Below, piece after piece: positions 28,901 to 31,900 of a DNA stretch of 64,000 bases. Positions within the stretch are counted from its first letter, which is position 1; each line of letters opens with the position of its first letter. Position numbers: made by a program. The DNA is from Lytechinus pictus (Eukaryota). Where the stretch lies: NCBI RefSeq assembly GCF_037042905.1, contig NC_087263.1, positions 2,046,001-2,110,000 of the forward strand. The letters are read 5' to 3'.

Positions 28901-31900
28901 ATGCTTAAAACTTAGTCATTACCGGCACCACCATCATCAAAACCATATTCTTATTATTATTCTCGTTTATTTGGTTTTTTTTCTTTCCTCCTCCTACCCC
29001 TTATCAATCTTTATCATTATTAACCACGTCATCATCATTATCATTATCACTATCTTAATTATTATCTAATTTTTATCATTTTTGCTGATGTCATTTTAAT
29101 CAATTGAGTAATAAGATAACAATAAAATGAACAAATTCGCTTTTACAGGAGTTTGCTACATCTGTTGCAATGATCATTTATTTCAAATTCATCGCACGCC
29201 ATTACAAGCATATATATACTTACAAATAGATTAACCCCAGTAACGGAGAGTGATGGCAGATTGGAGAGATCAGGGGCCGCAGGAGCTGGAACAGGAGCAG
29301 GGGTCGATTCGGAGGCATTGGCAGGGGCTGGTTCAGGCTTCGCAGCTGGATCGCTTTCCGCCACAGCAGGATCCGATTCTCCTGGAGATGGATCCACTGT
29401 CTCTTCCACTGGGGGCATATTAGCTCCACCAGCTCCTCCACTGGCTGCAGAATCAGCAGCTGTACCCGGGTCTTCCGTAGGTGCTGTTCCACCTCCATCC
29501 TCCCCGGCTACCTCAGGTCCAGGAGACATAGGGGAAGTATCCGCAGGAGGAGCATCATCACCAGCATCCCCTTCATCATCGGAATCGAATCCTAGTTCCA
29601 TGGAGCTGAAGTTGATCTCAAACCACTCCCATCCTGTTTTCTTGGGGTCTGAAGAAGAGGAGCTCCGTCCATCACCTGATCTGTTGACTGTACCGGCCGG
29701 AGCTTGGCCGGAACTTGATCGGCTTGAACCTGAACCCATCGTTGAAAATCTTTGAAAGGAGAAATATATTCTTAATCAAAGCACACGACCATCCCTTTAA
29801 ATAATTACTTTTTGGAACGTCTACTTTGATAAGATGCAATAGACAGCATTTTACTGACATTGAACTGATGACGGTAGGCCCCAGAGGCGGATCCAGGATT
29901 TTCCCAAAGGGGCACATGAAAATTTGACAAGCAAAAAAAATATATAAATATATATTTTTTTACCTAAAATTGAAGGTCATTTCGCTCGCGGAAAATTTGA
30001 CAAGCCAAAAAAAATGTAATCAAACTCAAAAGGGGGCACACTTGGGTAGAAACGGTATATTATTTACATTACAAATTTCGATTATGTCTGTCAAAAGGGG
30101 AGCACGCCCCCCCCCCCCCCCCCCATCCCTGGATCCGCCATTGGTAGGCCCTACAAGTTATTCTACTTTTCCTTCTGCAACGATAATGTTAACACTTTAC
30201 CTCACTTGTTAGTAATGGTAATGGAAGTAATCAAACCTATATACTAACCGATACGAGTAGAGAGGAATAATAAAACTCACATTATTGTTACGAACATAAA
30301 ATTGCGGTACTTACATTTTATTTGCAGAAACCAGTTAAAAGCAAGAAATCCATGTGATGATTGTTGTTTACTATGTGTTACTACTAGGCGATTGTAAACA
30401 GGAGACCGTGACAACTCGACCAACCAATCATTCACCCCATCAAAACCTGGACCAATTCGTCCATGTCCGAAGTGGAACCGAATGTACTCTGTGTTTTCTC
30501 ATTGCCTTATATCATGTTTTGAAACTTAAAATTAATGTGTCTCATCATAATTACGCATGACAAGGGACTAGAAATCATGATCTGTCTAACTTTCATTCAT
30601 TGAAAATATTGTTTTGTTTATATTTGAACCATAGGTTATATTGGATTCGACCTTGCGGAAAGGCCGAAGTTTCTATGAGCGAGTTGGCAGCCAACCCATG
30701 ACTGGCCACTCGCACGTTGAATTGTGTCTTTTCAAAGAAATCCAATGGCCTCCTTCCTTTTGGTGTAAGAGAAAATCGATTTCTATTGAAAGGACAAATC
30801 TGTCAATAAAGGTACCCCTTTTAGGATCAGCGGTGAAGTCGAGGCATGCGTAGGAGAGGAGTTTGAGCACCCATGCGTAGTTGACAGACGAGATATCAAC
30901 TCAACAATGTGTTTGTTTTTGATTGACGACATCGAATGATGATAAAGGAGTGAGTATATAAATGGAAAAATGTATGGATGAATATTGATTCATTGGTAAA
31001 TATGACCATTATATTATTGATTAGAGTATTTTTTTTCTTAATTTGGAAAGTATTGATCAGCCAGATATTTCGAACTTTCAAATCCCACTCACAATGTGCC
31101 ATATTATAACCTTAATGAGAGAAGTGGCATATTATAATTAAGGAGGCCGTGATTCGAACATATTAGATGCTATCCTAAAAATCATCGAGCATACATGGCA
31201 CAATGACCCTAATTGGAAATAAGCCATATCGGCTTATTGGGCTCTCCTGTCAAGGTATTTCCATACGTTAGTTACACTTCCACCTGTTGTATCATACATG
31301 AAAAATCAAATCGAATCAATCAATCTACCTTGGGCTCTTCAAAGTGTGTCCCGGTTGCCTAAATTTTATTTTCTTGGCTGTTTGAATTTGAATCAAGAGA
31401 AATACTGACAGAGGCGTTCGGATGCCAATGGGATTCTTCGCACGGCCGGTACGTACGATGCATACGACTTTAAGAACGACTGGTAAACCTTTCTGACCCT
31501 CTAAATAATACTAATGAACATTTAATAGTGAGTATCATTTACCACACACAAGAACAGATCACCAATCGTTCTTAAATTCACTCTTAACTTACGAACGACC
31601 CCCTGTAAATCTTATCAACAGTAGCAATTATTAAAATATATTTCATGGTTAAATGAACCACCATAAGCCACAATTAACCAAGTTATTGTTACCTCTCGCT
31701 TGGCGTCCCGTTGCCATAGCTACATAACGCGTTGCCGGTAAACAACGGAGTTGGTTGCCGACCTCTATTATATATGTGCAATCATAGGAAAATAACAGAT
31801 AACTATCACACTATTATTTCGATATTCAACTTGGACGGAAAATAGGCCTAATCTCAAGAAAAAATATACGACAGCATATAGTTTTTTCTATTCATATGGG

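What the first reader, a model, noticed from the sequence alone, without database searches (positions are those of the whole stretch)
29713..29739. N-myristoylation motif in all three TGs; the TG-A N-terminus matches ciliary cystin-1
The starts are MGSGSSRSS (TG-A), MGTGTSRGGR (TG-B, 46697) and MGTGTSKGRR (TG-C, 56558): Gly2, Ser6 and a basic residue at 7, which is the NMT consensus, plus nearby basic residues for membrane binding. From memory, human cystin-1 begins MGSGSSRSS and NPHP3 begins MGTASS. The motif is conserved although the rest of the extensions are low-complexity and unalignable. Each ATG sits just after an acceptor (1 nt in TG-B/C, 10 nt in TG-A). The match to cystin could be convergence in a Ser/Gly-rich motif.
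Basis: partly seen in the sequence, partly recalled or inferred. Interest (0 to 1): 0.65.

Follow-up and report, generated by a model that had tools for sequence, protein, structure and literature searches.

The report
Myristoylation-type starts on three urchin transglutaminases
Three neighbouring sea-urchin transglutaminase genes all begin with a conserved lipid-anchor (N-myristoylation) signal, a feature already known from fly transglutaminase A and red-cell protein 4.2, so this is a credible but untested new example rather than a new kind of thing.

Summary
On the minus strand, 29739-29713 reads MGSGSSRSS. TG-B (ATG at 46697, minus) starts MGTGTSR and TG-C (ATG at 56558, plus) starts MGTGTSK. 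The window is Lytechinus pictus (sea urchin), not human. NCBI models of TG-A (856 aa) and TG-B (811 aa) start at exactly these ATGs.

All three starts fit the PROSITE N-myristoylation pattern, with Ser6 and a basic residue at 7. The motif survives synonymous codon changes and about 50% overall divergence in two further relatives, while the neighbouring low-complexity sequence is scrambled.

Among the 150 best transglutaminase representatives, 11 carry such a start, against about 2 expected. A brachiopod and a tunicate enzyme also carry one.

Human cystin-1 does begin MGSGSSRSSR and mouse NPHP3 MGTASS (paper tables). Nothing beyond residue 9 matches, and cystin's AxEGG motif is absent, so this is convergence.

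An aromatic motif followed by an acidic run is also conserved.

Best reading: Gly2 myristoylation gives reversible membrane targeting of leaderless, catalytically intact enzymes. There is no nearby Cys, so the enzymes would be singly acylated. Myristate incorporation and transcript 5' ends remain untested.

The parts
29713..29739 (-). TG-A start codon and N-myristoylation-type motif, MGSGSSRSS
   Evidence: Identical to the start of NCBI L. pictus model P0001.
29224..29739 (-). TG-A coding exon 1: 172 codons, a disordered N-terminal extension that runs into the first beta-sandwich residues. Donor GT at 29223-29222.
   Evidence: 100% identity and coverage with P0001. No Pfam family. AF2 mean pLDDT 58.
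29750..29751 (-). Acceptor-like AG after a pyrimidine tract, 10 nt upstream of the TG-A ATG. Use not shown.
   Evidence: Sequence.
29554..29637 (-). TG-A second conserved element: aromatic motif TGWEWFEINFSS followed by an acidic run (residues 35-62)
   Evidence: Alignments. It is the only predicted helix (residues 35-44), at low confidence.
46677..46697 (-). TG-B start codon and motif, MGTGTSR
   Evidence: Identical to the start of NCBI model P0002.
46439..46697 (-). TG-B coding exon 1: 86 codons plus 1 nt, phase 1. Donor GT at 46438-46437. Acceptor-like AG at 46700-46699.
   Evidence: 100% identity with P0002.
46494..46574 (-). TG-B aromatic motif plus acidic run (DDLFSEWLRNWINSL...EELEEEDVD)
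56558..56578 (+). TG-C start codon and motif, MGTGTSK
   Evidence: No annotated model with this start was retrieved.
56558..56876 (+). TG-C coding exon 1: 106 codons plus 1 nt, phase 1 as in TG-B. Donor GT at 56877-56878. Acceptor-like AG at 56555-56556.
56687..56776 (+). TG-C aromatic motif plus acidic run (DDIYSEWLISWMNHL...FEEENDLDDD)
19579..29739 (-). TG-A gene, coding span. The catalytic exon lies within ORF 24686-25171.
35585..46697 (-). TG-B gene, coding span. The catalytic exon lies within ORF 42694-43179.
56558..64000 (+). TG-C gene, cut off by the end of the window. The catalytic exon lies within ORF 60466-60909.

Best explanation
The window carries three paralogous, catalytically intact transglutaminase genes of the sea urchin Lytechinus pictus. 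Each protein has no signal peptide. Each starts with a long disordered extension whose first seven residues are MG[ST]G[ST]S[RK].

Proposed mechanism, step by step:
1. Translation starts at this ATG. This is supported for TG-A and TG-B by the NCBI models and inferred for TG-C.
2. Methionine aminopeptidase removes Met1 because Gly2 is small (established knowledge).
3. N-myristoyltransferase attaches myristate to Gly2 during translation, because the sequence fits its substrate consensus. This is inferred from the motif and not shown.
4. The single lipid, helped by nearby Arg/Lys (weakest in TG-A), gives reversible membrane association. No cysteine is available for a palmitate lock. This is inferred.
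5. The calcium-dependent cross-linking enzyme is thereby placed on the cytoplasmic face of the plasma membrane or of vesicles. From there it may reach the cell surface by a leaderless route. This last step is speculative. It rests on analogy with Drosophila TG-A and on the old finding of an egg-surface transglutaminase in sea urchins.
For: Motif:
- All three starts fit PS00008, with Ser6 and a basic residue at 7.
- Each ATG has A at -3 and G at +4.
- Reading the genomic sequence straight through, no in-frame ATG lies between the preceding stop and the ATG.

Annotated starts:
- NCBI models P0001 (856 aa) and P0002 (811 aa) of L. pictus begin at these ATGs.

Conservation:
- P0016 is 50% identical to P0001 over 855 residues and starts MGSGSSK. 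P0018 starts MGSGSSS.
- M1, G2, G4 and S6 are invariant in 5 of 5 aligned extensions, while the next ~45 columns have no invariant residue.
- TG-B and TG-C differ by three synonymous changes inside the motif.
- In a core-domain tree, the clade P0001+P0016+P0018+P0002 (support 99) is 4 of 4 motif-positive, with path lengths of 1.1-1.65 changes per site.

Spread in the family:
- 11 of the 150 best representatives (138 start with M) carry the pattern, against about 1.9 expected.
- Lingula hemocyte TG isoform X2 and a Styela TG also carry it.

Precedents and context:
- Protein 4.2, a transglutaminase homologue, is myristoylated at Gly2 (passages of bioRxiv 10.1101/2022.02.10.480008).
- Drosophila TG-A is dually acylated and exported by an ER-Golgi-independent route (one passage in PMC7884776 plus the title of Shibata 2017).
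- Sea-urchin eggs have a cell-surface transglutaminase, and their secretory products have none (abstract of PMC2115685).
- The catalytic Cys, His and Asp motifs are present in all three genes.
Against: - No transcript or lipid-labelling data were available.
- PS00008 is a loose pattern with many false positives.
- An acceptor-like site lies 1-10 nt upstream of each ATG. The frame is open across it, so an upstream coding exon cannot be excluded from sequence alone.
- No annotated TG-C model with this start was retrieved. The only TG-C-like model found (P0003, 682 aa) starts further downstream and lacks the whole extension.
- There is no Cys in any exon 1 peptide, and TG-A has only two basic residues in positions 7-20. 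Membrane binding by myristate alone would be weak.
- Most relatives lack the motif: 81 of 95 rows in the tree and 127 of the 138 Met-started representatives. It is not a general family trait, and many of those gene models may have wrong 5' ends in either direction.
- TG-B's RGG-rich stretch looks more like a nuclear or RNA-binding feature than a membrane anchor.
Confidence: 0.65

Rival explanations
1. The lipidated N-terminus is a cargo signal for the UNC119 chaperone, as in cystin-1 and NPHP3. UNC119 would shield the myristate, and ARL3-GTP would release the enzyme at cilia or another specialised membrane. The motif would then be a sorting signal rather than a simple anchor.
For: - Positions 3-5 are S-G-S or T-G-T in all three genes. 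This meets the 'UNC119A Specific Cargo' rule: myristoylation consensus plus small or medium residues at 3, 4 and 5 (Stephen et al. 2018, passages of PMC6179904).
- The first nine residues of TG-A equal those of human cystin-1.
- The missing palmitoylation site and the weak basic patch fit a carrier-dependent cargo.
- Urchin embryos are heavily ciliated (general knowledge).
Against: - The rule is permissive.
- Cystin also needs AxEGG for ciliary retention (passage of PMC6678300), and AxEGG is absent from all three extensions.
- Nothing links transglutaminases to cilia in the papers seen.
Confidence: 0.12
2. The ATG is the true start, but Gly2 is not myristoylated or the lipid has no role. The motif would be kept for another reason, for example the initiation context (G at +4), N-terminal processing or stability, or Ser/Thr phosphorylation.
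For: - PS00008 is loose.
- The Gly codon supplies the +4 G of a strong initiation context.
- The region is Ser/Gly-rich, so part of the motif comes from composition.
Against: - Initiation context explains only the first base of codon 2. It does not explain invariant G4 and S6 or the conservative S/T and R/K positions across about 50% divergence.
- The pattern recurs in several separate transglutaminase lineages, needing at least 7 changes on the tree.
- Two family members are reported as myristoylated.
Confidence: 0.12
3. The motif is internal. A coding exon upstream of the acceptor-like site supplies the real start, so the conserved Met-Gly is not the N-terminus.
For: - Acceptor-like AG sites lie 1 nt (TG-B, TG-C) or 10 nt (TG-A) before the ATG.
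- No in-frame stop lies between that AG and the ATG.
Against: - NCBI models for TG-A and TG-B start at the ATG.
- Models of two further relatives also start at the same Met.
- An internal Met would have no reason to stay invariant in sequence that is otherwise scrambled.
Confidence: 0.1
4. TG-A's N-terminus is homologous to cystin-1, that is, a shared ancestral exon.
For: Nine identical residues.
Against: - No similarity after residue 9, judged against the 44 residues of human CYS1 printed in PMC11240719.
- No AxEGG motif.
- With the local Ser/Gly-rich composition, the six free positions match by chance at about 2e-4 per comparison. That gives 0.1-0.4 expected matches over a few hundred myristoylated proteins and three genes (the number of such proteins is my assumption).
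- The motif is shared with other transglutaminases.
Confidence: 0.01

Closest known systems
Drosophila transglutaminase A (TG-A); Shibata et al. 2017, J Biol Chem 292:10723
   Same: A leaderless, active transglutaminase whose N-terminus carries fatty acylation that directs membrane association and Golgi-independent export. Seen here: the title and one summarising passage in PMC7884776.
   Different: TG-A is dually acylated, with myristate plus palmitate. The urchin extensions have no Cys, so only one lipid is possible. They also carry a 120-180 residue extension with an aromatic/acidic motif. The paper itself was not held, so the acylation sites are recalled and not read.
Erythrocyte protein 4.2 (EPB42)
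   Same: A transglutaminase-family protein myristoylated on Gly2 and held at the membrane (passages of bioRxiv 10.1101/2022.02.10.480008).
   Different: Protein 4.2 lacks transglutaminase activity (same passages). The urchin genes keep the GQCWVF Cys and the His and Asp motifs and have long extensions.
Keratinocyte transglutaminase 1 (TGM1)
   Same: An N-terminal extension that anchors the enzyme to membranes through fatty acids. Seen here: passages of PMC11854935 and the title of Steinert et al. 1996 in its reference list.
   Different: TGM1 is acylated on a cysteine cluster inside the extension (Cys47-51, as listed in that review), not on an N-terminal glycine.
Cystin-1 (CYS1) and NPHP3, myristoylated ciliary cargo of UNC119
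   Same: The same kind of start. CYS1 begins MGSGSSRSSR and NPHP3 begins MGTASS. Both have small residues at positions 3-5.
   Different: These proteins are unrelated to transglutaminases. There is no AxEGG (cystin) and no similarity beyond residue 9. This is a resemblance of motif, not of family.
Lingula anatina hemocyte transglutaminase isoform X2 (P0004) and Styela clava TG E-like (P0012)
   Same: Annotated invertebrate transglutaminases with an extension that starts with a PS00008-type motif.
   Different: Lingula has Cys3, which is the dual-acylation type. Neither falls in the urchin clade in the tree.

Membership tests
Animal transglutaminases (Pfam Transglut_N / Transglut_core / Transglut_C) | Domain profile matches | tested here: met
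   Transglut_N scores 50.9, 39.2 and 42.4 bits. Transglut_core scores 54.6, 46.3 and 46.1 bits on exon ORFs of TG-A, TG-B and TG-C. Transglut_C on TG-A is below the cut-off (18.6 bits) because only one exon was scanned.
Animal transglutaminases (Pfam Transglut_N / Transglut_core / Transglut_C) | Catalytic Cys-His-Asp triad | tested here: met
   [YF][14 protein letters not shown] and GWQ[AV]VD[AS]TPQE are present in the catalytic exons 24686-25171, 42694-43179 and 60466-60909. Assigning these motifs to the triad rests on general knowledge of the family.
N-myristoyltransferase substrates | Gly directly after the initiator Met | tested here: met
   NCBI models P0001 and P0002 start MG. TG-C is known by ORF only.
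N-myristoyltransferase substrates | PROSITE PS00008 pattern G-{EDRKHPFYW}-x(2)-[STAGCN]-{P} at the N-terminus, with Ser/Thr at 6 and a basic residue at 7 | tested here: met
   3 of 3 match. The pattern was written from my knowledge of PROSITE. One search names the entry (PDOC00008) only.
N-myristoyltransferase substrates | The Met is the true translation start (no upstream coding exon) | tested here: inconclusive
   Database models agree for TG-A and TG-B. An acceptor-like site with an open frame lies just upstream. No transcripts were available.
N-myristoyltransferase substrates | Myristate is found on Gly2 | not testable with these tools
   Needs metabolic labelling, mass spectrometry or an NMT assay.
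Dually acylated transglutaminases (Drosophila TG-A type) | Cysteine near the myristoylated glycine for S-palmitoylation | tested here: not met
   0 Cys in each of the three exon 1 peptides (172, 86 and 106 residues).
Dually acylated transglutaminases (Drosophila TG-A type) | Export in exosomes that depends on the acylated N-terminus | not testable with these tools
   Experimental. The primary paper was not held.
Cystin-1 | N-terminus MGSGSSRSS | tested here: met
   TG-A only: against the table of PMC11240719.
Cystin-1 | AxEGG ciliary targeting motif | tested here: not met
   no A.EGG in any of the three extensions. The nearest strings are AGEDGGG, PVPEGGE and GGAEGGG.
Cystin-1 | Small non-enzymatic protein (145 aa in the passage of PMC6678300) with sequence similarity along its length | tested here: not met
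   TG-A is an 856-residue transglutaminase. By eye there is no similarity after residue 9 to the 44 residues printed. No alignment was run with cystin.
UNC119A-specific cargo (USC motif of Stephen et al. 2018) | Myristoylation consensus plus small or medium residues at positions 3, 4 and 5 | tested here: met
   S-G-S (TG-A) and T-G-T (TG-B, TG-C). Definition read.
UNC119A-specific cargo (USC motif of Stephen et al. 2018) | High-affinity binding to UNC119 and release by ARL3-GTP only | not testable with these tools
   The complex tool offers no myristate and no eukaryotic reference. No job was sent.

The most novel reading that the evidence does not exclude
Echinoderm transglutaminases share an ancient N-terminal sorting module. 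It consists of a myristoyl-glycine with UNC119-type small residues, a low-complexity spacer, an aromatic helix and an acidic patch.

Age: the module would predate the split of the three echinoderm transglutaminase groups. That depends on TG-A, TG-B and TG-C corresponding to the three groups found in all classes in PMC10381214, which was not tested.

Function: the module would work as a single-lipid, chaperone-shuttled signal. It would deliver a leaderless cross-linking enzyme to a specialised membrane (egg cortex or microvilli, cilia, or budding vesicles) and from there to the cell surface. That would identify the long-known egg-surface transglutaminase and its route out of the cell.
Probability: 0.12. 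Interest if true: 0.6.

Novelty: new member of a known kind. Interest (0 to 1): 0.35.

Why it matters
How transglutaminases, which have no signal peptide, reach membranes and the outside of cells is still only partly understood. A lipidated N-terminus is the mechanism worked out for the fly enzyme.

If the three urchin enzymes are myristoylated, three things follow:
- The egg-surface cross-linking activity that hardens the fertilisation envelope gains candidate genes and a simple handle, the Gly2 mutation. This sits in a species now used for genetics, with transparent embryos.
- A single-lipid, Cys-free version of the signal, conserved across deep paralogues, could be compared with the dual-lipid fly and brachiopod versions.
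- The repeated appearance of such starts across the family (at least 7 changes on the tree) suggests that lipid anchoring is a recurrent answer to the same localisation problem.

None of this changes the current view of the family. It extends that view.

Tried and rejected
- **Cluster look-up.** Alternative annotated starts therefore stayed unchecked.
- **Word-based searches with the low-complexity first exons.** These returned only the L. pictus proteins themselves: 1 hit each among 8000 scored candidates. Orthologues had to be found through a core exon instead.
- **ESM Atlas.** A search with TG-A exon 1 gave no usable hit.
- **Pfam.** It finds nothing in any of the three first exons.
- **AlphaFold2 on TG-A exon 1.** With a three-row alignment the model has low confidence (mean pLDDT 58, pTM 0.17). 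It shows only one short helix at residues 35-44. I take that as weak support for a helix at the aromatic motif and draw nothing more from it.
- **Cystin homology.** Considered and rejected. The AxEGG search was negative and the chance estimate is unremarkable.
- **LC3-interaction or adaptor-ear type reading of the aromatic motif.** Considered by eye and dropped, because the spacing of the aromatic residues is not the same in the three genes.
- **Papers not held.** Shibata et al. 2017 and Wong & Wessel 2009.
- **Literature search for prior reports.** Searches for transglutaminase + myristoyl + sea urchin (1 paper, unrelated by its title and abstract) and for transglutaminase + myristoyl + starfish/echinoderm/invertebrate (none of the 12 listed papers holds both 'transglutaminase' and 'myristoyl') found no report of lipidated echinoderm transglutaminases. 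This holds only for the open-access library that was searched.
- **Complex prediction.** No job was sent, because the lipid cannot be modelled there.
- **Closed resources.** Supplementary File S15 of PMC10381214 (echinoderm transglutaminase sequences) could show directly whether other classes keep the motif, but supplements are closed.
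Full report
**What is at the coordinates.** The stretch 29713-29739 is on the minus strand. Its reverse complement reads ATG GGT TCA GGT TCA AGC CGA TCA AGT, that is MGSGSSRSS. The other two starts are also as described. TG-B has its ATG at 46697-46695 on the minus strand and reads MGTGTSRGGR. TG-C has its ATG at 56558-56560 on the plus strand and reads MGTGTSKGRR. Exon-sized ORFs downstream of each start match the Pfam transglutaminase domains. They also carry the catalytic motifs [YF][14 protein letters not shown] and GWQ.VD.TPQE. 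These are three transglutaminase genes that look enzymatically intact:
- TG-A: 19579-29739, minus strand.
- TG-B: 35585-46697, minus strand.
- TG-C: 56558 to the end of the window, plus strand, truncated.

**Source and how the searches were made.** The window is not human. The first coding exon of TG-A is 100% identical over its whole length to an 856-residue NCBI protein of the sea urchin Lytechinus pictus (P0001). The first coding exon of TG-B is 100% identical to an 811-residue protein of the same species (P0002). Both are named 'protein-glutamine gamma-glutamyltransferase 4-like'. All searches were made exon by exon. The step of joining exons into a spliced model and searching with it was left out. 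Where full-length sequence was needed, I used the database proteins as returned, in local comparisons only. Stretches of N in the window were left alone.

**Is the ATG the start?** Both NCBI models begin at exactly these ATGs. Each ATG has A at -3 and G at +4. Read straight through the genome, no in-frame ATG lies between the preceding stop and the ATG. A pyrimidine tract plus AG lies 1 nt before the ATG in TG-B and TG-C, and 10 nt before it in TG-A. The frame is open across that short stretch. Sequence alone therefore cannot exclude an upstream coding exon, and I had no transcripts. Against that possibility, the Met is invariant in five homologous extensions whose neighbouring sequence is scrambled. 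No annotated TG-C model with this start was retrieved. The only TG-C-like model found (P0003) starts downstream and lacks the extension altogether.

**Is the motif more than chance?** All three starts fit PROSITE PS00008 anchored at Gly2. Each has Ser6, Arg or Lys at 7, and two or three basic residues in positions 7-20. A composition estimate puts such a start at about 1.4% of proteins. Because the genes are paralogues, conservation is the real test:
- TG-B and TG-C differ by three synonymous changes and one Arg/Lys change within the seven motif codons.
- An exhaustive profile-free search with a 201-residue TG-B exon found 1013 relatives, and I read the best 150.
- Among them, P0016 is 50% identical to TG-A over 855 residues and starts MGSGSSK. 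P0018 starts MGSGSSS.
- In the alignment of the five extensions, M1, G2, G4 and S6 are invariant. Nothing else is invariant until the aromatic motif.

**The tree.** I built a tree from the core domain only. Of the 161 stored proteins, 95 rows were kept and 66 were dropped. The dropped rows were N-truncated, did not start with M, were shorter than 600 residues, lacked the catalytic motif, or had too little sequence on either side of it. P0001, P0016, P0018 and P0002 form a clade with support 99. All four carry the motif, at path lengths of 1.1-1.65 changes per site.

**Spread in the family.**
- Of the 150 representatives, 138 start with M, 18 with MG, and 11 fit the pattern. About 1.9 are expected, and about 3.5 of the 18 MG starts. 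The binomial values assume independence, which relatives do not have.
- On the tree, 14 of 95 rows are positive. The label needs 8 changes, at least 7 of them forced by well-supported branches. Shuffled labels need 13.2 on average, and 0 of 500 shuffles reached a value as low as 8. The motif is therefore both inherited within clades and gained or lost repeatedly.
- Named examples outside echinoderms are a Lingula hemocyte transglutaminase (with Cys3) and a Styela enzyme. A fish model and two coral models fetched in the same call do not have it.
- Most relatives lack the motif, and predicted 5' ends in such libraries are unreliable in both directions.

**The rest of the extension.** That is not so. 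After 30-45 residues of Gly/Ser/Arg-rich filler, all five extensions have an aromatic motif followed by an acidic run:
- TG-A: GWEWFEINFSS
- TG-B: FSEWLRNWINSL
- TG-C: YSEWLISWMNHL
- P0016: GWYWFEIYFSN
- P0018: HEWTDKYFSN

AlphaFold2 on TG-A exon 1 gives a low-confidence, mostly disordered model whose only helix covers residues 35-44, the aromatic motif. Pfam and the ESM Atlas find nothing in the extension. None of the three first-exon peptides contains a cysteine.

**Cystin and NPHP3.** The recalled sequences are right. A table in PMC11240719 prints human CYS1 (NP_001032237.1) as starting MGSGSSRSSR and marks Gly2 as the myristoylation site. A table in PMC4049891 prints mouse cystin as MGSGSS... 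and mouse NPHP3 as MGTASSLVSPTG. TG-A thus shares its first nine residues with human cystin-1. The match ends there. Cystin's AxEGG targeting motif (passage of PMC6678300) is absent from all three extensions. With the local Ser/Gly-rich composition, the six free positions match at about 2e-4 per comparison. That is unremarkable over a few hundred lipidated proteins (that number is my assumption). The MGSGSS start is also shared with other transglutaminases.

One functional lead remains. Stephen et al. 2018 define high-affinity UNC119A cargo as the myristoylation consensus plus small or medium residues at positions 3-5 (passages of PMC6179904). S-G-S and T-G-T meet that rule.

**How it most likely works.**
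- Shown here: three leaderless, catalytically intact transglutaminases have a conserved NMT-type start on a disordered extension.
- Inferred: Met1 is removed and Gly2 is myristoylated during translation. With no cysteine for palmitate, the proteins carry one lipid. Arg/Lys residues help in TG-B and TG-C but hardly in TG-A. Membrane binding should therefore be reversible or carrier-assisted.
- Speculative: this places the enzyme under the plasma membrane or on vesicles and feeds a leaderless export route.

Precedents in the family are protein 4.2, myristoylated at Gly2 and catalytically inactive. Drosophila TG-A is dually acylated, packed into multivesicular bodies and exported independently of ER-Golgi (a passage in PMC7884776 and the paper's title; the paper itself was not held). 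TGM1 is acylated on cysteines in its extension. A sea-urchin egg-surface transglutaminase, active within minutes of fertilisation and absent from secretory products, was described in 1988 (abstract of PMC2115685). A lipid-anchored cortical enzyme would fit that description. The later molecular study of urchin egg transglutaminases (Wong & Wessel 2009) was not held, so I cannot say what it reports about their N-termini.

**Age.** A review of echinoderm matrix genes states that three transglutaminase genes occur in all classes except crinoids, which have four. It also states that they form three groups apart from the vertebrate enzymes (passages of PMC10381214). If TG-A, TG-B and TG-C correspond to those groups, the shared start predates the echinoderm classes. 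I did not test that correspondence, and the review's sequence file is a closed supplement.

**Novelty and verdict.** No paper that my two searches listed reports lipidation of an echinoderm transglutaminase, and this covers open-access text only. The kind of feature is known, so this is a new member of a known kind. Its distinctive points are a single-lipid, Cys-free signal with UNC119-type small residues, coupled to a conserved aromatic/acidic motif. I put 0.65 on real, functional Gly2 myristoylation and score interest at 0.35.

Noticed in passing
window 29554-29637 (-), 46494-46574 (-), 56687-56776 (+): A second conserved element lies in the N-terminal extensions: an aromatic motif (W-x3-4-[WFY]-[IM]-N-like) followed by an acidic run. 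It is shared by TG-A, TG-B, TG-C and two database relatives. It is predicted as the only helix in TG-A exon 1, at low confidence. Its function is unknown.
   Followed up: partly
window 46580-46680 (-) and 56600-56680 (+): The TG-B spacer is rich in RGG/RG repeats (SRGGRGSARGG...VRGGGG), a composition typical of arginine-methylated or RNA-binding regions. The TG-C spacer is a long Gly run with His and Glu. TG-A's spacer is Ser-rich instead.
   Followed up: no
window 19579-64000: All three transglutaminase genes sit in one cluster. TG-B and TG-A are in tandem on the minus strand. TG-C is divergent from TG-B, with about 9.9 kb between the two ATGs. A review says echinoids have three such genes in all, so this may be the whole family of the species.
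   Followed up: partly
window about 3930-12930 (+): Exons of a gamma-glutamyltranspeptidase gene lie here. Pfam PF01019 hits on ORFs 5035-5373, 5583-5927 and 12480-12929.
   Followed up: partly
window 2833-3631 (+): ORFs here have reverse-transcriptase-like strings, so this looks like a retroelement fragment. Pfam found nothing for the two ORFs scanned at E <= 0.01.
   Followed up: partly
window 29881-30144 and 49947-49973: A short element of about 264 bp has 17-nt terminal inverted repeats (88% complementary) and an internal C run. It lies about 140 bp upstream of the TG-A ATG. A 27-base piece of it recurs with 3 mismatches at 49947-49973 on the other strand, where 0 matches are expected by chance. 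It looks like a miniature transposable element.
   Followed up: partly
window about 10.9-11.2 kb, 16.6-17.3 kb, 32.8-33.8 kb: Stretches of N are embedded in simple-sequence repeats with very low G+C. They were left as they are.
   Followed up: no
P0003 (database protein, no source name): A 682-residue TG-C-like model differs from the window's TG-C at a few residues and starts downstream of the extension (MTDEYEY...). Annotated starts of these genes are therefore not uniform.
   Followed up: no
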